From: a virus
DNA length: 64,000 nucleotides
Virus record (IMG/VR): IMGVR_UViG_3300017589_000061
Coordinates: 64,001-128,000 of that record
Reading direction: 5' to 3' (one strand)
In this document: in pieces, positions 247 through 62,310 of the stretch
Numbering within the stretch: the first letter of the stretch is position 1
Layout of the letters: every line of letters starts with the position of its first letter
Translations under genes and position numbers: made by a program
The notes under the pieces: model-generated
Seen by the model: the letters and a program-made list of their open reading frames with translations, nothing else
Told to the model about the DNA's origin: nothing
Databases searched by the model: none

Positions 247-285
247 AATAGTAAATAAAAATATTGTTTTAACACAGGAGGATTT

Positions 286-510
286 ATGAATCAAGAATGG
301 TATAATCCAAATAATGTAACAGCAGATAACTTTAACGAAACTATGAGGGGATATGTAAAATATGCTTTAAGAGATGTAGAAGCAACTTTAAAAAATAAAG
401 GTTTCAGTAATGAACAGATAGAAGATTTTAAAACTTCCTTTAGGGGTAGTTTAAATTGGTCAATAGATATGATGACAATGGAAGAAGCAAGAAAATATTA
501 TAACAAATAA
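286..510 (+). CDS. Hypothetical protein
   Basis: ORF with AGGAGG RBS. Confidence 0.75.
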   Translation: MNQEWYNPNNVTADNFNETMRGYVKYALRDVEATLKNKGFSNEQIEDFKTSFRGSLNWSIDMMTMEEARKYYNK

Positions 511-539
511 AAATAATTCAAAAGGGGGTGGAGTGGTAA

Positions 540-734
540 ATGAAAATTAGTGAAGCTAAAAAACTAAAAATAGGTGATGTTATTTATGAAAAAATACATG
601 GTTATAAAATGACAATTGAATCTATAAAAGAAAGCAACTCGACTGGGGAAAATAAAATAATAATAGGATGCAGAACTAACGATAGTGGTTTATTATTTAT
701 ATATGATCACAAAGAAGTTATAATAAAAAATTAG
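540..734 (+). CDS. Hypothetical protein
   Basis: ORF with RBS; stop lies in 18-bp site. Confidence 0.7.
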   Translation: MKISEAKKLKIGDVIYEKIHGYKMTIESIKESNSTGENKIIIGCRTNDSGLLFIYDHKEVIIKN

Positions 735-758
735 TTTTATTAGAAAGGAAATGTAAAA

Positions 759-932
759 ATGAGCAAAATATATGAATATCAAGGATATAAAATTCAAAAT
801 TCACCTTATGGAAGTGAAGCGAGATGGTTTATATTTGATGAAAATATGGAACGAATAAAATTCATATCACCATGTAGAACATTAAAAGACGCTAAAAAAG
901 AAATTGATGATATGATAAAAAGGAAATTTTAA
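759..932 (+). CDS. Hypothetical protein, 57 aa (not in ORF track)
   Basis: AAAGGA RBS; MSKIYEYQGYKIQ...KRKF*; bounded by sites 723 and 915. Confidence 0.65.
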   Translation: MSKIYEYQGYKIQNSPYGSEARWFIFDENMERIKFISPCRTLKDAKKEIDDMIKRKF

Positions 933-943
933 GGGGTGATAAG

Positions 944-1228
944 ATGGAACAAAAACATTTTAAAATTAATGTATTTATAGATTCAACAGATAGTAAAATG
1001 AATATTGAAGTGCTTAGAAATAAGTTTACGGAATGGACTAGACAAAATAATTTAACATTTTGTGGTTCATTTGGGGAGATTGAGGATGAACAAGAAAATA
1101 AAAATAATCAAATTTGTTTATATTGTAGCAACTCACTATCAACAGATGATGATAAATTATACTGCGTTGTAAGAGAAGAAATGGTAGAAGAAAATGAAGG
1201 TCAAGAATGTGGATGGCATAATATATAA
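944..1228 (+). CDS. Hypothetical protein with Cys-rich C-terminus
   Basis: GGGGTGA RBS; CLYC...C...C. Confidence 0.7.
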   Translation: MEQKHFKINVFIDSTDSKMNIEVLRNKFTEWTRQNNLTFCGSFGEIEDEQENKNNQICLYCSNSLSTDDDKLYCVVREEMVEENEGQECGWHNI

Positions 1229-1286
1229 AAATAAAACGGTCATTTTAAGGTAAAAATATTATGAATTTTAAAGGGAGAAATTTAGT

Positions 1287-1580: not shown

Positions 1581-1628
1581 TAAATAAAAACAGCATTTTA
1601 ACTATATAAAAATAAGGAGAATGTAAAA

Positions 1629-1826
1629 ATGAAGAATACTGAAGAAGTTTATTTAGTAAGATATGGTAAGACTTGGTTTACAGATGGTGAAATCGAGCAA
1701 CGTTATAAATTTAAAAATATAGATACATTATTAGAGACAATGAAAAGTTGTTTGTCCGATGGTGAATGGGTAGAAGATTTGAATGGTAATAAAATAGATA
1801 TAAAAATAGAATATGCTAAAAGATAA
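1629..1826 (+). CDS. Hypothetical protein
   Basis: AAGGAG RBS. Confidence 0.7.
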   Translation: MKNTEEVYLVRYGKTWFTDGEIEQRYKFKNIDTLLETMKSCLSDGEWVEDLNGNKIDIKIEYAKR

Positions 1827-1893
1827 AAGTGATATTTTATCGCACAAATGATAAAAATAAACATTGAAATATCAACGATTATAGGAGGTAAAA

Positions 1894-5458: not shown

Positions 5459-6796
5459 ATGTATTTTATGAAAGTTGAACCGAGTATTTTAAAAGATAGA
5501 ATTGACGAGATATTAATAGAATTAAATCAAAATGGTCAAATAAAAAGGTTGTTGGATAGTAATTTACTAGACGAATATATGAATGGTTCGTTGCTAACCA
5601 AAACATTAAATCAAAATCTACCTTTAAACAATAGGTCGATATCAGAATTATATCATATAAGTCGTTTAATTAATACTTTACAACCAAAAATCAAAGTTGA
5701 CGAATATTTTACGGATGATGAAATAACACAAGCCATTAATAATAAAAATAATATAAAAATAGAGAGTAATCCTTTGATAAAACTTAAAGATGTTTTATAT
5801 TCTAAAAACAACAATGAAGAAACTTGGATGACTATGGTTACTTATAAAGAAATTAATGAATGGATGAAAACAGGAAAGCTAGGCTATAACATGGAAACAC
5901 AAAGAGTTGGGAAGATGCGTAAAATTGGTCACAAGATGTTTGTTGTCCCACATATAAATGATAATTCAGTAGAAGATATCAAAGATGCTCTAGTGAAGAA
6001 TGAATTTTATTCTAATATGATTTCATTCAATATTACACCAGATTACAATAAAAAGTTAGAATACAATCCAGTAGAAAAAACTTTAACTATTGACACAGCA
6101 ATCTTTGATGTGGATGTTATTGACGGGTATCATAGATGTTCAGGTATTGTTAAGGCTTTTGAAGTTGATTCAAATTTGGAGGGTGAATTATATTTAAAAG
6201 TTACTAACATGAGTATCGAGAAAGCTCAAAAGTTTATTAGACAAGAATCTAAAAGTAATATTCAAAATCAAGATGCTTTAGAAAAATATAATCCAAAAAA
6301 TAAGATTACAAGATTTGTTAAAAATATAAACGAAATGGGTTCTGAAGAAAGTAATGCGTTATATAGAAAAATAGACATGGGAGTAAATACTCGTAATACT
6401 TGGATAATGTTTGAAACTTTTAAAGAAGGATTAGATTTATCTGGGTTTTTAAGAGAAATTAATTACACTGATGATAGAACAAAACTTAAAAATATGGAAA
6501 TTTTTATTGTAACTTTCTTTGATAATTTTTATAAAATCGCAAATGACTATAAATTAAATGATAAGAAACGAGAAGAATTAACTGATCCTACGTTTATTAA
6601 AGGTTTGATAGTCACTTGTTATAAGTTTTATAAAAGTGGGAAAGGAATTGATATAAATTTGATATCAGCAATGGAAGTGTTTATAAAAAAATTCAAAACA
6701 ACTACAACAAAATATACCTACGAAAAAACTCTAAAAACTAAAGAAGAAACGAAATATATCAATAAGTTTAAGAGGTTATTGGAGGTGGAAAACTAA
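5459..6796 (+). CDS. DGQHR/DndB-like (ParB/Srx-fold) protein, YopQ-like
   Basis: VIDGYHR motif, upstream QR motif; size and position like SPbeta yopQ. Confidence 0.65.
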   Translation: MYFMKVEPSILKDRIDEILIELNQNGQIKRLLDSNLLDEYMNGSLLTKTLNQNLPLNNRSISELYHISRLINTLQPKIKVDEYFTDDEITQAINNKNNIKIESNPLIKLKDVLYSKNNNEETWMTMVTYKEINEWMKTGKLGYNMETQRVGKMRKIGHKMFVVPHINDNSVEDIKDALVKNEFYSNMISFNITPDYNKKLEYNPVEKTLTIDTAIFDVDVIDGYHRCSGIVKAFEVDSNLEGELYLKVTNMSIEKAQKFIRQESKSNIQNQDALEKYNPKNKITRFVKNINEMGSEESNALYRKIDMGVNTRNTWIMFETFKEGLDLSGFLREINYTDDRTKLKNMEIFIVTFFDNFYKIANDYKLNDKKREELTDPTFIKGLIVTCYKFYKSGKGIDINLISAMEVFIKKFKTTTTKYTYEKTLKTKEETKYINKFKRLLEVEN

Positions 6797-7774
6797 ATGA
6801 TTATTGATAAAGAAAAGAAAAACGAATATTTAGAGAGTATTAAAACACGAAATGAAGAAAAAACTTATGAGTTATATAGTAAATTGATATCTAAACTAGC
6901 CGAGTATGAAGAATATAAAGGAATTCATGCAATCAATATGACTAAATTAGATTTTATGGAGTTTTTAACTATGATGAATTCCTCTAGTCTTAGTGTTCTA
7001 TACACTTATAAAAGTGCGATTAATAGTTATTTGATATTTGCAACTGATAAACAGAATTTCACACTTGGTTTATTAGAATTAGATAAAATTAATCAAGATG
7101 ATTTATTGGAGTGTCTTAATAAAAAAGCTGAATTAATGCAGTTTATAACCGAAAGTGAATATTATGAGATATTAATGAAAGTAGATGATAATGGTAAACT
7201 TATCGGAAATTATCAAGATAAATTAGTAATTATTCTTTTGTGGAATAAGATTAAAGGCGAGACACAATTTAGCGATTTATTAAATTTAAAAGTATCGAAT
7301 GTAGATTTTCAAAATAAAGCAATAAATTTAAAAAATAAAATAATACAATTATCAGATGTCGAATTTGATATTATGAAAAAAGCAATAAATGAACAAACTT
7401 ATATTAGAACCACAATGACTAAAAAGGGATTAGTTAATGAAACTCCAGTTGATATCTTAGAAGGTGATTATCTTGTAAAAGCTACAATTGGATCAACTAA
7501 TAAAGATGTAGATAATAATAGGTGTACGTATGGTACTTTTGCTAATAGAATGAGTAAATATTATACTATCGTTTTACAAAGAAGTGGATTAACAAATCAA
7601 AGAATTTATAAAAGTAGTGTTTATTATCATATGTTAAAAGAATACGGAAGAAAACTTAGCCTGGGTGAATTAATGGAGTATCTAAAATTACATGGTGAAA
7701 AAGTTTCATTGTCTAACACTTACAGAGAACAAGAAATTATGTTTAAGAAAATGATGGATCAGGGCGAAATTTAG
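6797..7774 (+). CDS. Catalytically dead recombinase-fold protein, YopR/MrpR-like lysogeny repressor
   Basis: Integrase-like segment LLNLKVSNVDF without R/HxxR motifs; 325 aa; follows YopP- and YopQ-like genes. Confidence 0.65.
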   Translation: MIIDKEKKNEYLESIKTRNEEKTYELYSKLISKLAEYEEYKGIHAINMTKLDFMEFLTMMNSSSLSVLYTYKSAINSYLIFATDKQNFTLGLLELDKINQDDLLECLNKKAELMQFITESEYYEILMKVDDNGKLIGNYQDKLVIILLWNKIKGETQFSDLLNLKVSNVDFQNKAINLKNKIIQLSDVEFDIMKKAINEQTYIRTTMTKKGLVNETPVDILEGDYLVKATIGSTNKDVDNNRCTYGTFANRMSKYYTIVLQRSGLTNQRIYKSSVYYHMLKEYGRKLSLGELMEYLKLHGEKVSLSNTYREQEIMFKKMMDQGEI

Positions 7775-8278: not shown

Positions 8279-8500
8279 ATGAATAAAGATATAGAAAAGA
8301 ATATGAATAATACAATAAAACGTATTGATGAGAGTATAGATTATTACGATAAAAAATGGGATATTAAATTTAATAAAATGGGGAAAACTTTAAAAGATAC
8401 ATCTAAAATAATAAAAAGTATTAATATAATTTTAATTATAACATTTGTAATAATTATAGGATTAATGATTTTTTATAATAAAAAATTACTTTTATTATAA
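8279..8500 (+). CDS. Membrane protein
   Basis: C-terminal TM helix. Confidence 0.65.
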   Translation: MNKDIEKNMNNTIKRIDESIDYYDKKWDIKFNKMGKTLKDTSKIIKSINIILIITFVIIIGLMIFYNKKLLLL

Positions 8501-10151: not shown

Positions 10152-10206
10152 TAAAACTAGGGTTTTATGAGAATTATAACGTTGAAATTTCAACGATTTA
10201 AGGAGA

Positions 10207-11600: not shown

Positions 11601-11643
11601 ATTAAAATAAAAGGTGTGTTTTAATATAAAAGGAGATTAAATT

Positions 11644-11863: not shown

Positions 11864-12091
11864 ATGCTTTTAGATAAAGAAGATAGATTTTTATTAGTTG
11901 ATGAAGATGGTAATGTAGTTATTGTAACAGAAATAGAAACGAATCATTTATTGACAATGAATTCATCTATGCCAGTAAGAGGTAAATTAATAAGATTAGA
12001 TTATGAAGATTTAAATGTTGATAGTATTGAAGATGTAGAAGTACAATTAAGTTTTTATATAGAAAATATTGAAAATATTACAAAAAGATAA
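11864..12091 (+). CDS. Hypothetical protein
   Basis: GGGGTG RBS. Confidence 0.7.
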   Translation: MLLDKEDRFLLVDEDGNVVIVTEIETNHLLTMNSSMPVRGKLIRLDYEDLNVDSIEDVEVQLSFYIENIENITKR

Positions 12092-12157
12092 AAGAACTCT
12101 TTTATTACTTATAGTGAAGATTTAGATATTGAAATTTCAATAAAAAAGGAGAATTAA

Positions 12158-12527: not shown

Positions 12528-12947
12528 ATGGGAGACAAAAATATGGATATGTATACTAAATGTAATAATTGTAAAAAAGAATTAAATATTGAAGATGCAA
12601 AAAAGCAAATTGTAAATAATGGGATTTGGATGAATGAAAAGATAATTTGTAAAGATTGTTATGAAAAAGAAATAAAAAAGTTAATACAACAGTTATGTAA
12701 AACCTATAATTTAAAATATGAAAACTGTTTTACTGAAATAAAAAATAATCATTTGCTGATAAAAACAGAATTAGGTGAAATTAACAAAGAATATTACGGT
12801 ACAGATACTTATTATTTTGTAATAGACACTTATAATAATATTAGATGGATACAAAAAGATGATATAGAATTTAATTTACATAATGAAAATAATAATGCTA
12901 TTGAAAGAATGATTGAATTAATAAAATTTATGTGTGATAAATATTGA
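12528..12947 (+). CDS. Zn-finger hypothetical protein
   Basis: CNNC...CKDC. Confidence 0.7.
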   Translation: MGDKNMDMYTKCNNCKKELNIEDAKKQIVNNGIWMNEKIICKDCYEKEIKKLIQQLCKTYNLKYENCFTEIKNNHLLIKTELGEINKEYYGTDTYYFVIDTYNNIRWIQKDDIEFNLHNENNNAIERMIELIKFMCDKY

Positions 12948-13193
12948 AATTTCAACGTTTAAAATTGTAAAGATTATGATAAAATGAGATTTTTATCGGG
13001 AGGGCGAAAATCATGAGTGATACTCATCTTAATGGTAAATATATTAAAAGTATTGATAGAATTGATGACAAAACAATTCACATCAATCTAAAAAATGGAA
13101 AAATTGTAGTGATAAGAGCTACAATGTGTGATTATGATGATTGTGAATTGATTATTAGAAGATAAAATTCAGACTTTATCAGGAGGTTAAAAA

Positions 13194-14246: not shown

Positions 14247-14510
14247 TTAAAATCGAAGTTTTAATAGGAGGGAATATGAAAGAATTATTTATGCAAATTG
14301 AAATTTATGAAGCTAAATTAAATAGAACAACTTGTTTTGATAACATTGTAAATATGAAGGTTTTAAATAACAATTTAATTATAAAAGATGAAAATGGCTG
14401 GTCAACAAATATTGAAATTAATGAAGGTATCGAAGTTAAAGTTAATTTTTATAATTTAGATGATGATGAATTTGAAATTTAATTAATAGTAGAATTATAT
14501 TAAAAAAGAA

Positions 14511-14967: not shown

Positions 14968-15363
14968 TTAACTTCTGATATAAAAAGATATAAAGAAAAG
15001 TTACAAGAAGTAGAAAACGGGAATTTAGATATTTATATTTAAGGTTATATTTATAAAAGGAGTGAAAAGTGAAATAATGACTAGACATAAGTATATGAAG
15101 GTAATAAAACATATTAAAAGATTATTTTGTTATCACAAATGGGATATAGTAGGAAATCCTTATTTGTGGGATTATGGTAAAACTAAAAGAGCAAGTGTCA
15201 GATGTATAAAGTGCAATAAATTATCAGATATTGACATCTTTGATACGCCTAAAAGAAGATTATATTAAAAAGATAAAATAACGGTTTTATCCGAATTATA
15301 GGTCGAAAAAACGTTGAAATTTCAATGGTTATGGAATGTATAAAATTTAAAAAGGAGTAATAA

Positions 15364-16079: not shown

Positions 16080-16301
16080 ATGGCAAAATTAAAAAATGAT
16101 TGGAGCAACGCATTTAGAGGTAGTTTTGAAACCGAAGAAGATGTGATTGAATTTATTTTTAAAAATTTAGATACAAAAAATTGGGAAGATAGTTATATAG
16201 ATATGGGTGGATATGGCGAACCTAACGAATGTTTCAAACAAACAGTTGGAGATAAGAAGAATTTATTGTATGAGTTTATAATGAGTTTAATAAAACCATA
16301 A
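16080..16301 (+). CDS. Hypothetical protein
   Basis: ORF with RBS. Confidence 0.65.
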   Translation: MAKLKNDWSNAFRGSFETEEDVIEFIFKNLDTKNWEDSYIDMGGYGEPNECFKQTVGDKKNLLYEFIMSLIKP

Positions 16302-16318
16302 AAGGAATCTTTTAAGAG

Positions 16319-17318: not shown

Positions 17319-17777
17319 ATGGAAAATTTAAGTATAAAAGAAGTAGCAGAATATGTTATTAAGAATCATCCAGAGTCTTGTATAGCATACAATGTAAAAG
17401 ATTATACAAATGAATACGAAGGAATATTAATAGATGAATTAGATAGTTTTTTTACATATGACATAATAGGGATATGTGGCTGTGGCGACCCTGATTTATG
17501 CAAAAAAGATATAAGAGATATTTTAAATATTATTTATGAATATGATAATTCAGAAGATGATTTTAGCAAAAAATATGAAGTAAAGCAAAATAGGTTATTA
17601 GATAGATTTGGATGTATGAGTGTTTATGATAATTCTTTGTTATTGTTTATGGTTTACATATTAGACAATGTGGGATTACTAGAACATGGAAGTGGTATTG
17701 GTGGTGCTTGGATAACAAATTTAGGCAATATGTGTAGAGTAGTATATAATAATTTAAAGCTTGATGAAGAAGATTAA
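17319..17777 (+). CDS. Hypothetical protein
   Basis: GICGCGDP and EHGSGIGGAW motifs. Confidence 0.7.
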   Translation: MENLSIKEVAEYVIKNHPESCIAYNVKDYTNEYEGILIDELDSFFTYDIIGICGCGDPDLCKKDIRDILNIIYEYDNSEDDFSKKYEVKQNRLLDRFGCMSVYDNSLLLFMVYILDNVGLLEHGSGIGGAWITNLGNMCRVVYNNLKLDEED

Positions 17778-17836
17778 AACATTGCTTTTATTAGGTTGAT
17801 AATAATTCAAAAATACTTTATAATATTTTAAAGGAT

Positions 17837-18624: not shown

Positions 18625-18705
18625 ATTAAAATGATAAAACCAAGATTTTATTATACAAAATCAAAAATTGAGCGTTGAAATTGCAACGAATTTAGGAGGT
18701 AAGAA

Positions 18706-20858: not shown

Positions 20859-20947
20859 GTTAAAAATGTAAAGTACATAAAATTTACATTTTATCGTACA
20901 AAACAAGAAAATAAGTGTTGAAATTTCAACAAAAAAGGAGTAGTAAT

Positions 20948-41017: not shown

Positions 41018-41076
41018 TAAAAGAATGGTTTTAAGATACATAAAAATTATATTAAAATAAAAAGGAGATTAAAATA

Positions 41077-44080: not shown

Positions 44081-44422
44081 ATTAGTGAAATAAAAGGAAC
44101 ATTTTATCAGAAAAGCGAGTTACAAAACATAACTGAAAACAGCACTATACATACGTTATTAAGGTTAATAGAGAATAATACAGACGAAAGCAAAGTAGAA
44201 GATACGTTATTTGAATTAAGAGAATTGAATGATAGGTATTTTAGAAATGATGTGCAAGAAACGATTAATAATCTAAGCAAAGGACTAAATATCTGTCCGA
44301 TATGCGGTGGAGTTTTAACACCTACAATTGAAGTTATTTCACATCCAGAAATAGAAGGCAACTTCAAGGAAGAATCACTCTATTATGAGTGTGAAGAATG
44401 CGGGTTTGATGATCGAGATTAA
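44081..44422 (+). CDS. Zn-ribbon hypothetical protein (probable ATT start)
   Basis: AAGGAGAGG RBS then ATT in frame with 44225; CPICGG...CEECG. Confidence 0.55.
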   Translation: MSEIKGTFYQKSELQNITENSTIHTLLRLIENNTDESKVEDTLFELRELNDRYFRNDVQETINNLSKGLNICPICGGVLTPTIEVISHPEIEGNFKEESLYYECEECGFDDRD

Positions 44423-46570: not shown

Positions 46571-47037
46571 ATATTTTAGCAACACAATATACTCTTGCTA
46601 ATAAATCCTTTGAAATATATATGGCTGGCTGTAATGCCAGCCCACATTGTAAAGGTTGTCACTCTGAAGAATCGTGGGATTTCAATGCAGGAGAAGAAAT
46701 TACAAGATTGTATTTTTCTAAAATGTGGCACAAAATAAAAGAATTTGATAATTTAATAGATAAGATTTGGATTTTAGGCGGCGATCCCTTAGATAATGAT
46801 ATCGAAGAAATATATGAAATGGTTAATACCCTTTCATTATTAAATAAAGAAATATGGTTATTTACTAGATATTCATTGGAAGAAGTAAAAGTTAAATTAA
46901 AAAAATATATTAAAGTGTTTGATTATATTAAATGTGGTGCATATGAACAAGATTTAACAGTAGATGATAATATTCAATATGGTGTTAAATTGGCAACAAG
47001 TAATCAAAAGATATATAAAAGAGGTGTTGATTATTGA
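46567..47037 (+). CDS. nrdG: Class III RNR activase, radical SAM (probable ATA start)
   Basis: GC...HCKGCH, LGGDPL, WLFTRY, SNQ. Confidence 0.8.
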   Translation: MNILATQYTLANKSFEIYMAGCNASPHCKGCHSEESWDFNAGEEITRLYFSKMWHKIKEFDNLIDKIWILGGDPLDNDIEEIYEMVNTLSLLNKEIWLFTRYSLEEVKVKLKKYIKVFDYIKCGAYEQDLTVDDNIQYGVKLATSNQKIYKRGVDY

Positions 47038-47971: not shown

Positions 47972-48042
47972 AAGCATTGAAATTTCAACGTTAAAAATTA
48001 GTATAATAAAAGAATAGTTTTAACTGCCGAAAGGAGAATGAA

Positions 48043-52127: not shown

Positions 52128-52229
52128 AACGTAAATAAAAGACTTGTTTTATAATTTTGATATTCGAAAAATATTTAAATTTATTAGGGTGGCTGATTTA
52201 AAAATAAATTAAAAATACATTGTTATTAA

Positions 52230-53377: not shown

Positions 53378-53977
53378 ATGAAAACAAAAATTAATAAGAT
53401 GGAAAATGATTGGATTAACATAAAAAACAAATGTAGGAATACTGTCAATAAAGAATATACAGACAACGAACCTAAATCATTATTTAAAACAAAATTACTA
53501 ATATCAGAACATTCTCCAATAAGATTATTAAAAGTAGATTGGAGTTGGAAAAATATATTTTCATGGATTGCCACTCAATTTTCCAGATCAAAATGGGAGT
53601 GCTTTATATCAACTCGTAGAAGTGATAGAACTGGTATAGATAGAGGGGTGTTGTCTCAAAATGAATTAGTTAATTTTGATGGAGAAGCTAATGCTCAAAA
53701 TTTAATTGATACTGCGAGAAAAAGACTATGTTTTCAAGCAAGCAAAGAAACTAGAGAATTAATGGAAGATTTGAAAATAACACTAAGGGAAACTGAGCCA
53801 GAATTAGCTGATGTACTAGTTCCAAATTGTATATATCGTTGCTCCTGTCCCGAATTTGAAGAATGTGGATATTTTAAACATATAAAAGAATTATTGACAA
53901 AAGACGAATTAATTGATATTAAATTGAGATATCATTTATATAATGTATATTTTTATGAAAATAATAAATTAAGTTAA
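53378..53977 (+). CDS. ThyX-like flavin-dependent thymidylate synthase
   Basis: SEHSP, RKRLC..AS.ETR, VPNCIYR..CPEF. Confidence 0.6.
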   Translation: MKTKINKMENDWINIKNKCRNTVNKEYTDNEPKSLFKTKLLISEHSPIRLLKVDWSWKNIFSWIATQFSRSKWECFISTRRSDRTGIDRGVLSQNELVNFDGEANAQNLIDTARKRLCFQASKETRELMEDLKITLRETEPELADVLVPNCIYRCSCPEFEECGYFKHIKELLTKDELIDIKLRYHLYNVYFYENNKLS

Positions 53978-54004
53978 AAATTATCTTTTATCGGGAGGAT
54001 TAAA

Positions 54005-54670
54005 ATGAGTAGTTGGAATGGAAAAATAATATGTACGCAAAGTTTTTATGGTAATGTTTTTAATGAACAAGAAATTTATAATATTAAAAATGGTTGTTTC
54101 CAAAAGGGGATATTTGATAAAGAATTTGAGAATATAGATGAAATAAATAGTTACTTTTCGGCTAAATTTGAAGAAATTACAGAAAATAATTATGTTAACC
54201 TAAATAAACGTTGCAATTACAACGTTTCTAAAAGTGATTTACCTAATAAAATCCCTGTTTTATGTGAAATTTTAAATGTTGAACCACTGAAAAAATTTGG
54301 CATTCAATTATCCAAAGAGAAATATTATATTGATACATACGGACACTTATTGACTGAATGTGGAACAAGTAAAGATGAATATGTTCCATATCTAATTTCA
54401 GGCGAATATAAAATAGTAAAATTGCCATTTTATTCGTTTGCTGAAGATGAAAGGATTATTATGAAAGGTTTATTATTGAATGATTATAATTACATAGCAA
54501 GAGATGAAGATAATGATTTATGGGCTTATCAACTTAAACCTTTGGAAGATGAATCAGGCGAATATGATGCTGATGATGGAGATTTTTCAAAACTAAACAA
54601 TGGATTCTTTAAACAAGTCCAATGGGGAAATGTACTTGACATTAAAGCTGAAATTGATAGATTAAATTAA
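54005..54670 (+). CDS. Hypothetical protein
   Basis: GGAGG RBS; YIARDED motif. Confidence 0.65.
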   Translation: MSSWNGKIICTQSFYGNVFNEQEIYNIKNGCFQKGIFDKEFENIDEINSYFSAKFEEITENNYVNLNKRCNYNVSKSDLPNKIPVLCEILNVEPLKKFGIQLSKEKYYIDTYGHLLTECGTSKDEYVPYLISGEYKIVKLPFYSFAEDERIIMKGLLLNDYNYIARDEDNDLWAYQLKPLEDESGEYDADDGDFSKLNNGFFKQVQWGNVLDIKAEIDRLN

Positions 54671-57679: not shown

Positions 57680-58708
57680 TTATAAATTTTTTATATCTTT
57701 CTTTTCAATTTCTTTAATTCCATTTTCATCAAAATATTCACCTAAAATATCATCAACCTGATTGTCATCGTAAATGTCGATCATCGAAGTGCTATCCCAT
57801 GACGAAATATCTTTTATAATATTTGCTGGGACGTTTGCACTGACAAGACCAGTAGTAAAATTATGTCTTAACGAATGCCAATAAAAATCAACATTTAAAT
57901 ACTTACCAAATGATTCAGCATAATAATTTAAACTTGCTTCAGTCATACATTGCCATTTATCATCTTTTTTAATAACAAGTAAATCGTCAATACTTACTCC
58001 CAATTTTTCTCTTTCAATCATCCATAAATCAAAGTAGGGTTTAAATTTATTCTTTAATGTGTACTTAAAAATTTGCTTCCCAGCCTTACTTCGCCCTTTT
58101 GATTTTATCTTTTCTGGTGTTTTGTAAAGCGAACCATATAAAATATTTTCTTCATCGAAAAATGAAGTTTTAAATCTTAACAATTCTGATTTTCTACTAC
58201 CCGAACCCCAAGCAAGAGCTAATGCACAAGCTTGTTGATATTCTTTATTCTCAACTAAATAATCAAGTAATTTTTGAACATCTTCATCTTGTAATATTGT
58301 TTTTTCTCTAACTGGATTTTTAGCTGGAGCAGGAATTTTATTAATTATATTTCTAAAATTCGGGTATAAATCGTCCATTATTGCTTCGATATAGTTACTC
58401 ATACTGCTTAATGAAGCTCTTAATCTTCTTATCCTATTAGATGATAAATGCATAATATTTAACATATAATTTTGAAATTTTATTAAATCACGTTTTGTAA
58501 AATCAACAAAATATTTGTTATTATTATTTTCTAAATTCCAAATATAAAATATTTTTATATCTGAAGTATAATTTTTAACAGTCAAATCACTTCTGTCTAT
58601 TGAATTAAGATAATCACAAAATTCCTCAAGCAACTGCTTATTTTCTTCTAATACTAAATCATAATTACCTTCGCTTACTACATTATTATATACCGTACCT
58701 CTAGCCAA
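57680..58708 (-). CDS. Tyrosine recombinase
   Basis: SGSRKSEL, KSKG, HSLRH, SSW, IDIY. Confidence 0.85.
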   Translation of the reverse strand: MARGTVYNNVVSEGNYDLVLEENKQLLEEFCDYLNSIDRSDLTVKNYTSDIKIFYIWNLENNNNKYFVDFTKRDLIKFQNYMLNIMHLSSNRIRRLRASLSSMSNYIEAIMDDLYPNFRNIINKIPAPAKNPVREKTILQDEDVQKLLDYLVENKEYQQACALALAWGSGSRKSELLRFKTSFFDEENILYGSLYKTPEKIKSKGRSKAGKQIFKYTLKNKFKPYFDLWMIEREKLGVSIDDLLVIKKDDKWQCMTEASLNYYAESFGKYLNVDFYWHSLRHNFTTGLVSANVPANIIKDISSWDSTSMIDIYDDNQVDDILGEYFDENGIKEIEKKDIKNL

Positions 58709-59056: not shown

Positions 59057-59140
59057 TTTTACACCTCATAAAAGTTGAATTTTATCTGTTATTATCTTTT
59101 TTTTAACTTGATTTTTTCAAACTTTATGATATAATTAATA

Positions 59141-59206: not shown

Positions 59207-59557
59207 TTACTTACCTTCACCAATGTCTATATGTCCTTTAATTAAATCTACAAACTTAACTGATACCTGTGTTGCATAAAATACGAACCCAGACAAAAGT
59301 ATTAAATAACAAGCTGTCAACAAATTAACTTCTTCACCATTTACATTTACTGCTATAATATCAGGGTTAATAAATCCTGCATAATAAGTTGCGAAAAAAC
59401 AAAATGCTATAATTATACCTTTAATTATTCCTTGAAAAAGTTTCTTTTTATCAAATGCTTGGTTAAATAATGCCGAAAATGATCCTAAAACTATATTAAC
59501 TACTATTAAAATTACTAATCCTTTTGCAAGGTTAAGTGTACTTAATTCAATAAACAT
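59207..59557 (-). CDS. Holin
   Basis: Three TM helices, directly after endolysin. Confidence 0.7.
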   Translation of the reverse strand: MFIELSTLNLAKGLVILIVVNIVLGSFSALFNQAFDKKKLFQGIIKGIIIAFCFFATYYAGFINPDIIAVNVNGEEVNLLTACYLILLSGFVFYATQVSVKFVDLIKGHIDIGEGK

Positions 59558-59573
59558 TCTTTTAATCTCCTTT

Positions 59574-60941
59574 TTAATTTAAATTAAATCTTATTATATT
59601 ATGTATTCGTCTTGAATTTTCACCTTCAAATACATATTCACCATTGGCATCCATAAAAGTTGATCCACCCGAATCTAATGATATAGCAAAATTATATGCC
59701 TCACCTGTACTATTATCTGAAATTATTTTTAACAATTCACCATGAGAAACATTCTTAACAGTTAATAAATATACTTTATTTAGTCTTTTATTGTATCCTA
59801 ATACAGTTTTATTTGTTTTTCTTAATACATCCGAATAATCAACCCATTTATTATCTTGTTTTCTATATCCACCTTTAAAACCTTCGGTTACGGGACTATA
59901 CTTAAAATTATTATCTTGTGTATTTTTAAGACCAAGTCCTCCAATTACCAAACTAATTTTATTTAAATCTAATTCATTTAAAAAGTTAATTCTCTTTAAA
60001 TCAACTGTATTATCCTTATAAATTATAAAAACTGATTGTGGTGTTCCAAAATCATAATAATGATTGGCTACATCTTGATATGTTTTACCATCTACATATA
60101 AAATACTTGTTGCATAAGTAGTACCATCTGGATTTCGCCAATAATATGTTCCGTTGGTGCAGTTTGTAAATTCAGTAATATCCCATATTTTTTTATCTAC
60201 AATAGCAACATCTAATAACTCTGGATTTCCTTTTAATTCAGTCATATTGCTATATTTTTTAAAATCAACTTTTGGTTTTTCGGCTATTGGTGCTACTATT
60301 ACATCTTCAATAACTTCACCATTTATAGCTTTTGCCAAACTAATAATCATTGATTCTGCATATTGATAATCAGTCAAATATTTCATACTAATATCTTCTA
60401 ATTTTGCTTTTTCTCTTATTATTTGCTTTGCTTTATCAAATTCCATTTTTTTCATCTCCTTTTTTATATTATCAATGAATACATCCCAATGTGGCAATAT
60501 CAATCTAGGACAAATTTTACCACTCCAATGTTTATGTGGTACAACTTTATCAATAGTAATTCCAGTAGCCTTTAATAATTCGGCTACAAATTTAATTGCT
60601 AATTCTTCAGCACCGTCTACTTCAGCAATTTCTATAGCTATTGATTTTCTATTACCATCACCATTTAACCCATCGCCAGAATTCCAACTAGCTTCAATAA
60701 TAGGTATTTCTTGATAAACTTCATTTGCCCCAACTGTAAAATGCCAAGAAACATATCCTGTAGCAGTATCTACATATTCACTATTTGCCTTAGCACTTGT
60801 ATTTGTGTTGCCAGTGTTATGTATTGTAATATACTCAGGATTCATTTTATATTGTGATCTGCTGGTAGCATTGCTTATTGGAATTAAATCTTGAATTATG
60901 TTAATTGTATCAGAACTTACAATTCCATTTTTAATTAACAT
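59574..60941 (-). CDS. Endolysin: amidase_2 plus phosphodiester-glycosidase-like C-terminal domain
   Basis: YITIHNT, SWHFTV, GNRKSIAIEI, PHKHWSGKICP; C-terminal AISLDSGGST. Confidence 0.85.
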   Translation of the reverse strand: MLIKNGIVSSDTINIIQDLIPISNATSRSQYKMNPEYITIHNTGNTNTSAKANSEYVDTATGYVSWHFTVGANEVYQEIPIIEASWNSGDGLNGDGNRKSIAIEIAEVDGAEELAIKFVAELLKATGITIDKVVPHKHWSGKICPRLILPHWDVFIDNIKKEMKKMEFDKAKQIIREKAKLEDISMKYLTDYQYAESMIISLAKAINGEVIEDVIVAPIAEKPKVDFKKYSNMTELKGNPELLDVAIVDKKIWDITEFTNCTNGTYYWRNPDGTTYATSILYVDGKTYQDVANHYYDFGTPQSVFIIYKDNTVDLKRINFLNELDLNKISLVIGGLGLKNTQDNNFKYSPVTEGFKGGYRKQDNKWVDYSDVLRKTNKTVLGYNKRLNKVYLLTVKNVSHGELLKIISDNSTGEAYNFAISLDSGGSTFMDANGEYVFEGENSRRIHNIIRFNLN

Positions 60942-60962
60942 CTTTTACACATCCTTTATATT

Positions 60963-60989
60963 AAAAAGAGTGTCAAGTTTATGACACTC
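60963..60989 (-). terminator. Rho-independent terminator
   Basis: GAGTGTCA/TGACACTC stem with U-tail on minus strand. Confidence 0.65.
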
Positions 60990-61002
60990 ACAAAATTAAA
61001 TT

Positions 61003-61233
61003 TTATTTTTCAGGAACTTTTAACATTTCTTCAATTTCTACGTCCATTGTTTCGTAGTCTAAATTTTCACAACCAGTAAAATTGTATTTGTAAATTGTTT
61101 CAGTATTTCTATTTCTTACATGAGCTACTAATATATCAGTAGCAACTCCCATATCAACTTCTTTTTCTCTTGATATAGTTTTTCTTTCTTCTAAATATTT
61201 TTGTTCAAATTTTTCTCTTAATTCAATTATCAT
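61003..61233 (-). CDS. Hypothetical protein directly downstream of recombinase site
   Basis: AGGAG RBS. Confidence 0.7.
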   Translation of the reverse strand: MIIELREKFEQKYLEERKTISREKEVDMGVATDILVAHVRNRNTETIYKYNFTGCENLDYETMDVEIEEMLKVPEK

Positions 61234-61311
61234 TTTTATCTCCTAATTTTTGATTTTTATATTAAAAAAGTGTTGAAATTCCAACACTATAATTCGGATA
61301 AAATGTGACTT

Positions 61312-62310
61312 TTATGATATGTATTGTTCATAACTTGCTTTTACTTTATTCTGATTTATTTTTGCGTATATCATAGTTGAATTTATTGACGAATGCCCCA
61401 TTAATTCTGCCAACACGGTAATATCTAATCCCTTATTACATGCTTGAGTCGCATAACTATGACGAAATTTATGCGGTGATACCGAGGAAATTATATCTGT
61501 CTTTTTAGCAATACGTTTAAAAATTTTTTCCATTCCAGATTTACCTAAAGGTCTAAATGGCTTTCTTTCGCCAAGAAATAAACTCTCACTTGTTCCTTCA
61601 CGTTCTTTTATGTATTCTTGTAAGTATAATTTACATTTAACAGAAAAATAAACTATTCTATTTTTATCACCCTTACCATGAACCAATATACTATTATCAT
61701 TCCAACTGATGTCTTTTAATTTAATTTTTAACATTTCACTTATTCTACAACCAGTTGATATTGCTACTTCTATAATACTCTTTTCTCGTATATCTTTACA
61801 TACATTTCTTAATTTTTCAACTTCTTCAATCTCTAATGGTTCTCTTAATTCTTTTACGTTAACTTTTAAATTCTTTAATCTAACAGACGGATCTTTTTGT
61901 ATTATTTCTTCTTTGTAAAGTGTACCGAAGAAACTTCTCAAAACTGCCATTTTACCATTCAAAGTTATTTTCTCATATTTTCTTTCAGATTGAATAATTA
62001 CAAGATAACCTCTTAAATCGTTTATGTCAATTTGGTTAACTGGTTTATTTATGTATTTGCTAAATAGATTTAATTCTTCTCTATATCGCTCTATAGATTG
62101 TTCCGACAATCCTTCGACAGTTTTTAATCCTAAAAAGAAATGTATCTTTTCTGGTAAATCAGAAATCATTAAATCTGTACTATTAGATAATAATGTATAA
62201 CAGCTTAAATTTCTATCAAGAATTTCTTTAACCTCTAAGTTATTTATGCTATATTTATTTTGTAATTCTGACAGTATTTTGATGACAACTAATTCTTTTT
62301 CATCTTCCAT
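61312..62310 (-). CDS. XerD/integron-integrase-like tyrosine recombinase, candidate cassette integrase
   Basis: TGCRISE, GKGDK, HKFRH, MGHSS, TMIY; stop codon lies in the composite site. Confidence 0.9.
   Translation of the reverse strand: MEDEKELVVIKILSELQNKYSINNLEVKEILDRNLSCYTLLSNSTDLMISDLPEKIHFFLGLKTVEGLSEQSIERYREELNLFSKYINKPVNQIDINDLRGYLVIIQSERKYEKITLNGKMAVLRSFFGTLYKEEIIQKDPSVRLKNLKVNVKELREPLEIEEVEKLRNVCKDIREKSIIEVAISTGCRISEMLKIKLKDISWNDNSILVHGKGDKNRIVYFSVKCKLYLQEYIKEREGTSESLFLGERKPFRPLGKSGMEKIFKRIAKKTDIISSVSPHKFRHSYATQACNKGLDITVLAELMGHSSINSTMIYAKINQNKVKASYEQYIS

What the first reader, a model, noticed from the sequence alone, without database searches (positions are those of the whole stretch)
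255..61315. Candidate integron-like gene-cassette system: 18-bp ATAAAA-N6-TTTTAT sites delimit the accessory genes
Seen: about 45 sites with two inverted 6-bp arms and an exactly 6-bp variable core, e.g. ATAAAA-GTGATA-TTTTAT (1823), ATAAAA-CTAGGG-TTTTAT (10151), ATAAAA-GAACTC-TTTTAT (12088), ATAAAA-TAACGG-TTTTAT (15273), ATAAAA-CCAAGA-TTTTAT (18634), ATAAAA-TGTGGT-TTTTAT (41420). Nearly all lie at gene junctions, often supplying the upstream stop codon and running into the next RBS. Many promoterless single ORFs are therefore bracketed by two sites (759-932, 9918-10151, 12158-12511, 13905-14246, 24420-24803, 24838-25317, 25360-25725, 48043-48315). Established: inverted arms around a 6-bp overlap is tyrosine-recombinase core-site architecture. 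From memory, difH (XerH) and difSL (XerS) have AAAA-N6-TTTT inner arms. Tn916-type integrases tolerate non-matching 6-bp cores. Inference: these ORFs are mobile cassettes captured or shuffled by a phage recombinase and read from upstream sigmaA promoters.
Basis: partly seen in the sequence, partly recalled or inferred. Interest (0 to 1): 0.93.

Follow-up and report, generated by a model that had tools for sequence, protein, structure and literature searches.

The report
Barcoded palindromes where phage genes swap
A strict 16-base palindrome with a unique six-base centre sits between many genes of this large Clostridium-type relative of phage SPbeta, and related phages keep these sites in the same order while the genes between them differ, so they look like fixed joints for exchanging genes.

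Summary
The window has 20 exact ATAAAA-N6-TTTTAT sites against 0.47 expected and 38 core sites, TAAAA-N6-TTTTA. Only the 6-bp spacing is enriched: 51 in intergenic DNA against at most 1 for each other spacing from N2 to N10.

The genome is a 137-kb SPbeta-like phage-plasmid. It carries a yopP/Q/R-like trio, a YonO-like RNA polymerase and ParA. SPbeta itself has 34 such sites.

The sites behave as exchange joints.
- In nine SPbeta-group phages, 69 of 72 site-bearing junctions carry a homology breakpoint, against 72 of 157 other spaced junctions. Homology blocks end flush with the site.
- Relatives of this window share up to 7 six-base centres in the same order. In 16 of 19 intervals between shared centres the DNA is unrelated.
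- Centres are never palindromic (0 of 211) and never repeated within a genome.

The enzyme is not shown, and the integron criteria are not met. MrpR's known site, SPBRE, is a different motif. My own test against distant relatives showed no enrichment at the sites.

Eight earlier follow-ups of this scan found the same palindrome on other DNA. I found no description of it in print.

The parts
256..271 (.). A core site TAAAA-ATATTG-TTTTA at a gene junction
724..739 (.). A core site, centre AATTAG (exact 18-mer 723-740)
916..931 (.). A core site, centre AGGAAA. Shared in the same order with contig C685 of G006.
1232..1247 (.). A core site, centre CGGTCA. Shared in the same order with C685.
1585..1600 (.). 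A core site, centre ACAGCA. Shared in the same order with C685.
1824..1875 (.). A-B module: A core (centre GTGATA), 24 nt, then the B box TTGAAATATCAA
8246..8261 (.). A core site, centre AGTTAA. Homology with contigs C406 and C425 ends 4-8 bp after it.
8479..8494 (.). A core site, centre AATTAC. The same centre occurs in C406 and C425, where homology starts 2 bp before the core.
10152..10193 (.). A-B module with the short 14-nt spacer, centre CTAGGG. L166 has a related module with centre CTAGGT.
11608..11623 (.). A core site, centre GGTGTG. Shared in the same order with L166 and C400.
12089..12140 (.). A-B module, centre GAACTC. Shared in the same order with L166.
12944..12995 (.). B-A module (inverted arrangement), centre TGAGAT. 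Shared in the same order with L166.
14248..14263 (.). A core site, centre TCGAAG
15274..15325 (.). A-B module, centre TAACGG, upstream of a DNA methylase gene. The same centre occurs in C231, C389, L006 and L166.
16299..16314 (.). A core site, centre GGAATC. Its TAA is the upstream stop codon. Shared with C231.
17775..17790 (.). A core site, centre CATTGC. Shared with L006 and C389.
18635..18686 (.). A-B module, centre CCAAGA, after a Dam-like methylase gene. Shared in the same order with L166.
20878..20929 (.). A-B module, centre TTTACA. The whole 52 bp is identical in five other contigs (four metagenome contigs, L163-L166, and G006 contig C400), and C149 carries it with one mismatch. C475 and C347 hold only the part that reaches their contig ends. 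The flanking genes differ.
21756..21771 (.). A core site, centre ACTATG. Shared in the same order with L165, L166, C149 and C475.
23277..23328 (.). A-B module, centre GAGGAA. Shared with L165, C475 and C538, and homology starts at the first base of the core.
24386..24401 (.). A core site, centre TAAAAC
24805..24820 (.). A core site, centre TTTTAG. Shared with L165 and C596.
25327..25342 (.). A core site, centre CTAAGT. Shared in the same order with L165 and C596.
25723..25738 (.). A core site, centre CACACA. Its TAA is the stop codon. Homology with C596 starts exactly at its first base, at 100% over the first 96 bp and 93% over the 2.2-kb block. The upstream genes are unrelated.
35930..35945 (.). 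A core site, centre CGAGTT. A TnpB insertion sequence starts 6-9 bp after it. C596 carries the same centre in an uninterrupted A-B module.
40674..40725 (.). A-B module, centre AATACA
41018..41033 (.). A core site, centre GAATGG
41395..41436 (.). B-A module with the short 14-nt spacer, centre TGTGGT. The whole module is absent from the matching junction of contig C343, so it is a filled/empty difference.
44091..44106 (.). A core site, centre GGAACA
46563..46578 (.). A core site, centre TAAATA
47977..48022 (.). B-A module with an 18-nt spacer, centre GAATAG
52136..52151 (.). A core site, centre GACTTG. The matching junction in C343 keeps the arms but has the centre GGTTCA.
53975..53990 (.). A core site, centre ATTATC
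54211..54262 (.). B-A module (B variant TTGCAATTACAA, centre TCCCTG) lying inside my ORF call 54005-54670
54417..54432 (.). A core match inside an ORF. It may be a chance match.
59069..59084 (.). A core site, centre GTTGAA, in the block of minus-strand genes
61273..61314 (.). A-B module on the minus-strand gene block (centre TGTGAC as read on the + strand). The A arm supplies the stop codon of the Xer-type recombinase gene 61312-62310.
63477..63492 (.). A core match inside an ORF, centre TATCTG. The same centre lies at the start of the fetched piece of contig C16.
4345..5298 (+). YopP-like Xer-type tyrosine recombinase. The R, H-x-x-R, H and Y residues are visible in the alignment. It is the candidate reader of the sites.
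5459..6796 (+). YopQ-like protein
6797..7774 (+). YopR/MrpR-like protein with a recombinase-type fold (weak matches only)
57680..58708 (-). Tyrosine recombinase with homologues in G001, G003 and G004
61312..62310 (-). Xer-type tyrosine recombinase. It reaches the NCBIfam XerA model cut-off (223.1 against 220).

Best explanation
The W-TAAAA-N6-TTTTA-W sites are fixed joints at which related SPbeta-type phages exchange the genes that lie between them.

How I think it works:
- Each site has the same two 5-bp inverted arms. A conserved phage protein reads these arms.
- Each site also has its own asymmetric 6-bp centre, which is unique within the genome and acts as an address.
- An exchange happens inside the site and succeeds only between sites with the same centre.
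- A co-infecting or resident relative can therefore replace the gene or genes between two addresses without disturbing gene order, and the different sites of one genome do not recombine with each other.
- The most likely catalyst is a phage-encoded Xer-type tyrosine recombinase, with the YopP-like protein at 4345-5298 as first candidate. In that case the 6 bp would be the strand-exchange overlap.
- In this Clostridium-type lineage many sites are coupled, at 14 or 24 nt, to a second palindrome, (C)GTTGAAATTTCAAC(G). I take this to be an accessory-protein site. The 52-bp composite travels as one unit.

What is shown: the motif, its strict geometry, its junction position, the conserved order of the centres, the replaced intervals, and the flush homology edges.

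What is inferred: that the exchange is site-specific, which protein does it, and what the second palindrome does.
For: Geometry.
- Only the 6-bp spacing is enriched: 51 in intergenic DNA against at most 1 for each other spacing from N2 to N10, and 60 against 7.5 expected genome-wide.
- The arms are read as sequence, not as a stem. There is no covariation at positions -1/16, and complementarity at 5/10 is depleted. Compensated double changes are not in excess: 49 against 31-60 at the other spacings. No hidden pairing with the flanks was found.

A conserved reader encoded by the phage.
- The same motif is N6-specific in SPbeta (34 against at most 3) and in four very distant phages, G001-G004 (13-39 sites). 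It is also raised in the C. difficile phage LIBA6276, where the only control is the backwards-read pattern (19 against 6; all 9 sites in L001 lie at annotated CDS junctions).
- A 4.5-Mb Clostridium MAG shows no host-wide excess: N6 241 against N7 212.

Exchange joints, SPbeta region 82.7-100 kb plus 8 relatives.
- 69 of 72 site junctions carry a homology breakpoint. So do 72 of 157 other junctions with a gap of 20 bp or more, and 37 of 86 tighter junctions.
- Of the 169 block ends within -40 to +60 of a core, 49 fall at +16/+17. Of the 138 block starts, 86 fall at -2 to 0. Only 1 end and 4 starts lie inside N6.
- All 172 steps between shared centres keep the same order. Of the 172 intervals, 50 are replaced and 70 partly replaced.

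This window.
- L166 shares 7 centres in the same order, L165 shares 5, and C596 and C685 share 3 each.
- Of 19 intervals between consecutive shared centres, 16 have under 20% alignable DNA, 3 are partly alignable and 0 are out of order.
- By my hand estimate about 0.1 shared centres would be expected by chance for L166.
- The 52-bp module at 20878-20929 is identical in five other contigs with different upstream or downstream genes; a sixth has one mismatch and two hold only part of it.
- Of 28 alignments with the same centre, 20 end within 4 bp of a core edge. This is my reading, and at least two of them are contig ends.

The centres look like overlap regions.
- 0 of 211 are palindromic, against a null of 4.9 (P = 0.006).
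- None is repeated within any of six genomes. The null expectations sum to about 4.5, and the product of the six tail probabilities is about 0.01.

Candidate enzymes.
- The window holds three Xer-type recombinases with full catalytic-domain matches.
- The catalytic motifs of the YopP-like one are visible in the alignment to XerA.
- The yopP/Q/R trio is shared with SPbeta and with G002.
Against: - No recombination product, circular cassette or protein-DNA contact was observed.
- Against this genome's nearest relatives (66-93% identity), the ends of long alignments were not enriched at the sites. Of 65 breakpoints outside the insertion sequence, 49 lay at gene boundaries and only 6 within 25 bp of a core, while 54 of 244 junctions carry a site. 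At that divergence alignment ends may mostly mark decay of similarity, so I treat this test as weak. It is still negative.
- In the C. difficile group, breakpoints also fall at ribosome-binding sites, at start codons and inside genes. In the SPbeta group, 46% of site-free spaced junctions also carry breakpoints.
- Arms of 5-6 bp are much shorter than the 10-11-bp arms of dif-type sites, and nothing outside W-TAAAA is conserved.
- At one matching junction the arms are kept but the centre differs, GACTTG against GGTTCA. In the C. difficile set one centre varies between TGTAGA, TGTGAA and TTTGAA.
- Flush edges and conserved centres are equally expected if rare annealing-type homologous exchange uses the identical 16-52-bp patches.
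- The absence of palindromic centres could instead reflect avoidance of perfect 16-bp palindromes.
- The SPbeta-group counts repeat the same ancestral events across genomes, and they rest on my own heuristic gene calls.
- In laboratory phi3Ts x SPbeta hybrids, 15 of 16 junctions lay in long homologous regions (bioRxiv 10.1101/2020.05.06.055103, passages).
Confidence: 0.5

Rival explanations
1. PeSL-like punctuation. The A sites, and the B boxes in this lineage, are binding sites for a conserved phage DNA-binding protein with a regulatory or architectural job, such as a roadblock, silencing or phage-plasmid organisation. Because they are the only conserved patches between divergent genes, general or annealing-type homologous recombination occasionally crosses over in them. 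No dedicated recombinase is involved.
For: - A 5-6-5 palindrome with a free spacer is typical of sites bound by protein dimers.
- A and B are phased by one helical turn (14 or 24 nt), occur in either orientation, and once occur as A-B-A.
- The 52-bp modules are long enough for phage annealing proteins. SPbeta encodes a Sak4-like one and LIBA6276 an ERF one.
- PeSLs of T4-type phages are a documented precedent for short conserved junction motifs that mediate gene swaps by homologous recombination (PMC4122927, abstract; PMC2839356, listing).
- Breakpoints also occur at site-free junctions.
- The distant-relative test showed no enrichment at the sites.
- Modules can be absent from an otherwise conserved junction.
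- Laboratory hybrids recombine mostly in long homology (bioRxiv 10.1101/2020.05.06.055103, passages).
Against: - A-only sites offer just 16-18 bp of identity, yet 69 of 72 mark breakpoints.
- This model predicts neither that centres are unique within a genome nor that they are never palindromic.
- A and B contain no promoter or strong terminator. B folds at about -5 to -6 kcal/mol and A at -0.4 to -4.9, and the perfect sigma-A promoters lie elsewhere. So the defining PeSL parts are missing.
Confidence: 0.28
2. Purely regulatory element with no role in exchange. Either a dispersed operator in the manner of stoperators or KorA/KorB sites, or an intercistronic RNA hairpin that affects processing or translation of the downstream gene.
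For: - The sites lie just after stop codons and, in junctions with an A site alone, 12-21 nt before the next start codon.
- Dispersed repressor sites are known in mycobacteriophages (PMC9283540, abstract).
- SPbeta's repressor MrpR has a recombinase fold (PMC10516654, passages).
- Some sites with G-C closing pairs fold at about -5 kcal/mol as RNA.
Against: - MrpR's mapped site, SPBRE, is a different motif, as I read it in the ten promoter regions of SPbeta.
- The sites are not in promoters.
- A free spacer should drift, yet centres are conserved in the same order between genomes whose intervening genes are unrelated.
- An RNA stem should show covariation and tolerate G-U pairs. It does not, and the bare core is unstable at -0.4 kcal/mol.
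- The composite occurs in both orientations relative to transcription.
- YonO uses a single mapped start site (PMC5467207, passages).
Confidence: 0.1
3. A true integron-like platform. Single promoterless ORFs would be excised as circles and captured at the sites by an integron-type integrase acting on folded single-stranded hairpins.
For: - The sites overlap stop codons and precede the next ribosome-binding site, as attC sites do.
- Four single ORFs lie between two perfect sites.
- Tyrosine recombinases are present.
Against: - The integron-integrase models score 57-88 bits against cut-offs of 265 and 435.
- The sites are 16-18 bp with no extended or imperfect stems.
- They are dispersed through both gene blocks rather than arrayed behind one integrase and promoter.
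- The centres are position-specific and keep the same order between genomes. That fits replacement in place, not capture at one site.
- No duplicated cassettes flanked by sites were found; the single duplicated gene has different flanks.
Confidence: 0.04

Closest known systems
dif (pdif) modules of Acinetobacter plasmids, and single-recombinase Xer sites (difH/XerH, difSL/XerS, dif/XerA)
   Same: - Many short sites of inverted arms around a 6-bp centre bound discrete gene modules on one replicon, and the modules differ between relatives (PMC6449649 and PMC13141974, abstracts).
- The inner arms of difH and difSL read GAAAA...TTTTC-like (passages), close to TAAAA...TTTTA.
- Xer-type recombinases are encoded here.
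- Insertion sequences target pdif sites (PMC10132070, abstract). Here a TnpB element sits 6-9 bp from a site.
   Different: - The arms here are 5-6 bp, not 10-11 bp, and nothing outside them is conserved.
- The arms are symmetrical, so there are no distinct XerC and XerD halves.
- Every site has its own centre, kept in a fixed order between genomes.
- The element is a phage, and the recombinase would be phage-encoded.
- No recombination has been shown.
PeSLs (promoter-early stem-loops) of T4-type phages
   Same: Short conserved junction motifs flank variable genes of unknown function, and they mark the points where relatives have swapped, gained or lost genes (PMC4122927, abstract). The 52-bp A-B modules behave in the same way.
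   Different: - PeSLs are a terminator plus an early promoter, and they act through homologous recombination.
- A and B contain neither a promoter nor a real terminator.
- A alone is 16-18 bp.
- It has strict palindromic arms and a unique centre.
Integron attC / IntI gene cassettes
   Same: The sites lie right after the stop codon of mostly promoterless small genes, and a tyrosine recombinase is suspected.
   Different: - attC sites are 57-141-bp folded single-strand hairpins. That size is recalled, not taken from any call.
- Integron cassettes are captured at one attI behind one promoter.
- None of these features is met here.
SPBRE / MrpR master repressor of SPbeta, and mycobacteriophage stoperators
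   Same: Both are dispersed short sites read by a phage protein. MrpR has a tyrosine-recombinase fold, and a weakly similar MrpR-like gene lies in the window (PMC10516654, passages; PMC9283540, abstract).
   Different: - SPBRE has ten sites in promoter regions and a different 15-bp motif.
- Stoperators are asymmetric 13-mers. That detail is recalled.
- A sites are not in promoters, and their spacers are conserved as addresses.
Engineered heterospecific lox/FRT cassette exchange (recalled; no call)
   Same: It works the same way in principle. The arms are identical, and spacer variants recombine only with their like, so a segment between two different sites is swapped in place.
   Different: - It is an artificial use of Cre or Flp.
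- It has 13-bp arms and an 8-bp spacer, and two sites rather than 40-60.
- This is an analogy only, not a family to which the sites could belong.

Membership tests
Integron (IntI/attC/attI) | An integron-type integrase | tested here: not met
   The integron-integrase models TIGR02249 and NF011946 score 57-88 and 28-60 bits against cut-offs of 265 and 435, for the two best recombinases.
Integron (IntI/attC/attI) | attC: a long imperfect palindrome that folds as a single strand | tested here: not met
   The site is a 16-18-bp bare palindrome. The stem does not extend and does not pair with the flanks. There are no compensatory changes.
Integron (IntI/attC/attI) | A cassette array at one attI, next to the integrase and one promoter | tested here: not met
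   Sites occur at 51 of 244 junctions across all regions and both gene orientations. Several perfect sigma-A promoters lie inside the block.
Integron (IntI/attC/attI) | Circular excised cassettes | not testable with these tools
Xer/dif-type sites, including pdif modules | Two 10-11-bp recombinase-binding arms | tested here: not met
   Only W-TAAAA (6 bp) is conserved on each side. Positions -2 to -5 and +17 to +20 look like background. Arm lengths of dif sites are taken (passages).
Xer/dif-type sites, including pdif modules | A 6-8-bp central region between inverted arms | tested here: met
   The spacing is strictly 6 bp.
Xer/dif-type sites, including pdif modules | A cognate Xer-type recombinase | tested here: inconclusive
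   Xer-type recombinases are present. 61312-62310 reaches the XerA model cut-off, and 4345-5298 has visible catalytic motifs. No link to the sites was shown.
Xer/dif-type sites, including pdif modules | The sites bound modules that differ between related replicons | tested here: met
   In the window, 16 of 19 intervals between shared centres are replaced. In the SPbeta group, 50 of 172 are replaced and 70 partly replaced. Breakpoints fall at 69 of 72 site junctions.
PeSL (T4-type phages) | A composite of an early promoter and a terminator stem-loop | tested here: not met
   I could place no -35/-10 pair in A, in B or in the spacer (my reading). The consensus promoters lie elsewhere. The hairpins are weak, at -0.4 to -6 kcal/mol.
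PeSL (T4-type phages) | A conserved junction motif at indel or replacement boundaries in variable regions | tested here: met
SPBRE (MrpR operator) | The 15-bp SPBRE motif in the promoter regions bound by MrpR | tested here: not met
   The motif shared upstream of aimR, yonT, yonP, yonX, yorZ, yosX, yopV, yopM and yorE (none seen upstream of yorM, the tenth) differs from TAAAA-N6-TTTTA. A sites sometimes lie nearby but are separate. The list of bound genes comes from PMC10516654 (passages).
REP elements with a RAYT transposase | A Y1 (HUH) transposase gene that co-occurs with the palindromes | not tested
   Only a TnpB gene was identified. The proteome was not screened for Y1 transposases.

The most novel reading that the evidence does not exclude
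SPbeta-type phages, from Bacillus subtilis SPbeta to this Clostridium-type phage-plasmid, carry a natural, genome-wide system of recombinase-mediated cassette exchange. It consists of 30-60 sites per genome with identical arms and mutually incompatible, position-specific 6-bp overlaps. A conserved phage Xer-type recombinase, YopP-like, reads them. Related phages can then trade accessory and anti-defence genes slot by slot without scrambling gene order.
Probability: 0.4. Interest if true: 0.92.

Novelty: new variant of a known kind. Interest (0 to 1): 0.8.

Why it matters
How large temperate phages keep a stable gene order while constantly replacing accessory and anti-defence genes is an open question. 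A set of addressed exchange joints would be a concrete mechanism.

It can be tested directly, because the same motif is present 34 times in the genetically tractable model phage SPbeta. Several of the variable slots in SPbeta relatives hold known anti-defence genes: Gad1 and Gad2 lie in the region I compared.

If a recombinase reads the sites, it would also supply dozens of naturally orthogonal recombination sites for genome engineering.

If instead the sites are regulatory patches used by homologous exchange, they extend the PeSL principle from T4-type phages to Gram-positive temperate phages.

Tried and rejected
Readings I considered and rejected
- Sigma-A promoter in A, B or the spacer. I could place no -35/-10 pair with a workable spacing (my reading). 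Perfect promoters lie elsewhere.
- Intrinsic terminator. The hairpins are weak and lack a U-run. The scan found only B boxes on the opposite strand.
- Hidden extended hairpin, or pairing of N6 with the flanks. None was found; all |z| are 1 or less.
It is the only G000 protein with BLASTP hits in all of G001-G004. However, it is absent from the motif-bearing LIBA6276 and present in the motif-poor G007.
- A host factor. The 4.5-Mb MAG shows no N6-specific excess.
- MrpR/SPBRE. The motif is different.
- YonO promoter. Only one start site is mapped (PMC5467207, passages).
The intron follows a GC-rich hairpin plus TTTTA, not a TAAAA-N6-TTTTA site.
Rfam found none at gathering thresholds in L069. 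I did not repeat the search at E-value thresholds.

Searches that led nowhere
- There is no near-identical genome. No nucleotide match exists in 'phages', and the best DnaE identity in viral contigs is 68%.
- Sequencing runs: six holders were listed, all DNA by the tool's guess, each with a share of 0.13 or less. No RNA holder was listed. Read mapping gave no result.
- A PDB sequence search with the MrpR-like protein gave nothing significant.
- Supplementary Table 1 of bioRxiv 10.1101/2020.05.06.055103 lists the 16 hybrid junctions, including the one non-homologous junction 'following yosA'. SPbeta has an A site at 116415 near that gene. I could not see the table, because supplements are closed.

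Searches behind 'not in print'
- Full-text searches.
- Passage searches for 'palindrom', 'motif' or 'intergenic' in PMC5786514, PMC10516654 and PMC8270828.
- None mentions this palindrome. Subscription papers, including the 1999 SPbeta genome paper, were not searchable.

Full report
1. WHAT THE WINDOW IS

The window is bases 64,001-128,000 of a 137,366-bp record whose first and last 99 bases are identical, so the record is probably circular. GC content is 27%.

The genome is a siphovirus-like phage-plasmid:
- tape-measure and portal proteins and a ParB-like nuclease;
- ParA and an FtsK-like ATPase;
- DnaB, primase, RecJ, a DnaE-type polymerase and NrdD;
- a TnpB insertion sequence;
- a group II intron.

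It is a distant relative of Bacillus phage SPbeta:
- The genes at 4345-5298, 5459-6796 and 6797-7774 match YopP, YopQ and YopR/MrpR in the same order. Pairwise BLASTP gives E = 7e-5, 3e-14 and 1e-5 (SPbeta gene order).
- A 911-aa protein matches the SPbeta RNA polymerase YonO (E = 2e-26).
- The replication genes follow the yorI-L order.

The nearest annotated phages are the large plasmid-like C. difficile phages LIBA6276 and LIBA2945, at 64% DnaE identity.

- The exact 18-mer occurs 20 times against 0.47 expected.
- The conserved unit is W-TAAAA-N6-TTTTA-W, with 38 copies in the window and 60 in the genome against 7.5 expected.
- The 6-bp spacing is exclusive. In intergenic DNA there are 51 sites with N6, 0 or 1 for every other spacing from N2 to N10, and 1.3 expected from shuffles.
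- In five genomes, 151 of 177 sites lie at gene junctions by my heuristic gene calls.
- In 13 of 60 sites the left arm supplies the upstream stop codon.

3. WHAT KIND OF SITE IT IS

Outside the arms only A or T is tolerated at positions -1 and +16, and nothing else is conserved. The arms are read as sequence, not as a stem:
- There is no covariation at positions -1/16.
- Complementarity at the innermost spacer pair is depleted, 30 against 46 expected.
- Compensated double changes are not in excess (49, against 31-60 at control spacings), and single-mismatch variants are hardly above background, 215 against 152-260.
- The spacer does not pair with the flanks.
- As RNA the sites fold at -0.4 to -4.9 kcal/mol.

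A second palindrome, (C)GTTGAAATTTCAAC(G), lies 14 or 24 nt from many sites. It occurs on either side, and once on both sides as A-B-A.

The same A motif, with the same spacing rule, occurs in:
- four very distant IMG/VR phages, G001-G004, with 13-39 sites each. All four have B boxes, and only one G000 protein has BLASTP hits in all four;
- LIBA6276, where the relaxed core TAAAA-N6-TTTTA occurs 19 times against 6 for the control pattern and there is no B box. Only the backwards-read control was run there, not the other spacings. All 9 sites in L001 lie at annotated CDS junctions;
- SPbeta itself, with 34 sites against at most 3 for the other spacings.

A 4.5-Mb Clostridium MAG that carries related phage contigs shows no host-wide excess, 241 against 212. 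So the reader of the site is most likely phage-encoded and conserved across this phage superfamily.

4. WHAT THE SITES DO IN EVOLUTION

My first tests were discouraging.
- Against the nearest relatives of this genome (contigs of MAG G006, 66-93% identity), I found 65 long-alignment ends outside the insertion sequence. Of these, 49 lay at gene boundaries but only 6 within 25 bp of a site, while 54 of 244 junctions carry a site.
- In the C. difficile group, breakpoints fell at ribosome-binding sites, at start codons and inside genes as well as next to sites.

Three further observations changed the picture.

First, whole A-B modules are kept letter for letter while both flanks change. The 52 bp at 20878-20929 is identical in five other contigs from several sources: four metagenome contigs and G006 contig C400. 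C149 carries it with one mismatch, and C475 and C347 hold only the part that reaches their contig ends. The upstream and downstream genes around it differ from contig to contig. For example, a methylase-like gene follows it in C149, where this genome has an unrelated 275-codon ORF. One module is present here and absent from the matching junction of C343, between a conserved stop codon and ribosome-binding site.

Second, earlier notes of this scan pointed to SPbeta, and I tested that independently. I compared SPbeta 82.7-100 kb with eight relatives (Goe11, Goe13, SPbetaL1, L4, L6, L8, phi3T and SPR).
- 69 of 72 site-bearing junctions carry a homology breakpoint. So do 72 of 157 site-free junctions with a gap of 20 bp or more, and 37 of 86 tighter ones.
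- Homology blocks arriving from the left end at +16/+17 relative to the core in 49 of the 169 ends near a site. Blocks from the right start at -2 to 0 in 86 of 138 starts. Almost none end or start inside the 6-bp centre, 1 and 4 respectively.
- The whole site, centre included, therefore belongs to both neighbouring blocks. That is what is expected if crossovers occur within a site that is identical in both parents.

Third, the centres act as addresses.
- In the SPbeta group all 172 steps between shared centres keep the same order. Of the 172 intervals between consecutive shared centres, 50 are replaced (under 20% alignable) and 70 partly replaced.
- In this window, L166 shares seven centres in window order (GGTGTG, GAACTC, TGAGAT, TAACGG, CCAAGA, TTTACA, ACTATG). 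L165 shares five, and C596 and C685 share three each.
- Of 19 intervals between consecutive shared centres, 16 are replaced, 3 are partly alignable and none is out of order.
- By my hand estimate, chance sharing for L166 would be about 0.1 centres.
- Of 28 local alignments between this genome and its relatives that share a centre, 20 stop within 4 bp of a core edge. This is my reading, and at least two of them are contig ends.

5. MECHANISM

Two properties of the centres point to an overlap-dependent, oriented reaction rather than a passive patch.
- None of the 211 centres is palindromic. The null is 4.9 and P = 0.006.
- None is repeated within any of six genomes. The null expectations sum to about 4.5, and the product of the six tail probabilities is about 0.01.

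This is the logic of heterospecific recombination sites. Identical arms bind the enzyme, and an asymmetric centre sets orientation and partner choice. Sites within one genome cannot delete the DNA between them, whereas matching sites in two genomes can exchange it.

Xer-type tyrosine recombinases are encoded here. The YopP-like one shows the catalytic Arg, His-x-x-Arg, His and Tyr in its alignment to XerA. It is shared with SPbeta and G002.

I therefore commit to site-specific, address-matched exchange as the best explanation, at about even odds.

The main rival is that the sites are protein-binding punctuation whose identity lets rare annealing-type homologous exchange happen there, as proposed for the PeSLs of T4-type phages (PMC4122927, abstract). 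It explains flush edges and conserved centres equally well. These points also fit the rival:
- the short 5-6-bp arms;
- the breakpoints at site-free junctions;
- my negative test against distant relatives;

The rival does not predict unique, non-palindromic centres. However, avoidance of perfect 16-bp palindromes could explain the absence of palindromic centres.

A purely regulatory role is unlikely:
- MrpR's mapped operator SPBRE is a different motif (PMC10516654, passages).
- The sites are not in promoters.
- YonO uses one mapped start site (PMC5467207, passages).

6. COMPARISON WITH KNOWN SYSTEMS

- Integron. The integrase models are far below their cut-offs, there is no attC-type hairpin, and there is no single platform. 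The sites are not a member.
- dif and pdif modules. The 6-bp centre, a Xer-type enzyme in the genome and the module-bounding behaviour are shared. The defining 10-11-bp arms are not, and position-specific centres are not a feature of that system. The sites work in a similar way but are not a member.
- PeSL. The evolutionary role is the same. The promoter and terminator content is missing.

I found no description of this palindrome in the library. The scan itself has met it before on other DNA, in eight earlier follow-ups.

7. LIMITS

- No recombination event, intermediate or protein-DNA contact was observed.
- The SPbeta-group counts re-count shared ancestry.
- The gene calls are my own heuristic.
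- 'Replaced' means not alignable by blastn at E <= 1e-5, so very fast-evolving orthologues would be counted as replaced.
- The role of the B box is unknown.

Noticed in passing
G000:C1:29260-31995 (- strand), outside the window: A 911-aa protein is a homologue of the SPbeta single-chain RNA polymerase YonO (27% identity over 509 aa, E = 2e-26). PHROGs lists its family as 'unknown function'. This Clostridium-type phage-plasmid therefore probably transcribes its late genes with its own YonO-type enzyme.
   Followed up: partly
window 4345-7774: A yopP-yopQ-yopR(MrpR)-like gene trio lies in the same order and with similar sizes as in SPbeta. The MrpR-like member is recognisable only weakly: Pfam MrpR_N_CB scores 24 bits against a cut-off of 27, and BLASTP gives E = 1e-5.
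   Followed up: yes
G000:C1:49700-64000 and window 1-3000 (junctions listed): A different recurring junction motif, roughly ATATAAAAATAA, lies directly upstream of the ribosome-binding sites of the early small genes. It loosely recalls the A/T-rich SPBRE of SPbeta, so it could be the operator of the MrpR-like protein. This was not tested.
   Followed up: no
window 2176-2204, 4270-4298, 14511-14539 and others (23606-23685, 35474-35585, 43974-44107, 49965-50045): Perfect or near-perfect TTGACA-17-TATAAT promoters are each preceded by the same AATTAAATTAAAAA tract, which looks like an UP element. The same tract also occurs directly before many ribosome-binding sites that have no promoter.
   Followed up: no
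G000:C1:47522-49696: A 2.2-kb non-coding stretch lies between the partition and FtsK-like genes and the early genes. It is full of repeats of a CATACTAA-like unit and may be the plasmid origin or an iteron region.
   Followed up: no
G000:C1:135434-137277 (- strand), L068 7434-9277: A group II intron (Rfam D1-D4 and domain V/VI hits) with a reverse-transcriptase ORF is inserted right after a GC-rich hairpin plus TTTTA, the classic terminator target. A B-box variant, TTGAGATTTCAA, follows the 3' exon start by about 27 nt.
   Followed up: partly
window 35951-37317: A TnpB-only IS200/IS605-type element starts 6-9 bp after the A site at 35930. Several copies exist in the related MAG contigs C60, C202, C442, C151 and C225, and in C60 the element abuts an A-B module. 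This suggests that it targets the right arm.
   Followed up: partly
window 3137-3547: A MazF/PemK-like endoribonuclease is the only G000 protein with BLASTP hits in all four distant phages G001-G004. It does not track the palindrome, being absent from LIBA6276 and present in the motif-poor G007.
   Followed up: yes
window 16080-16301 and G000:C1:61043-61253: This is the only duplicated gene in the genome (88% identity over 212 bp). The homology runs from the start codon to 12 nt before the stop. One copy is followed by an A site and the other is not.
   Followed up: partly
L015/L022 against L017-L021 (C. difficile phage loci), site near position 1957: At one matching junction the centre reads TTATCA in most genomes and TGATAA, its exact reverse complement, in two. 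This is either a flipped centre or two point changes.
   Followed up: no
Rfam at gathering thresholds found none there. I did not repeat the search at E-value thresholds.
   Followed up: partly
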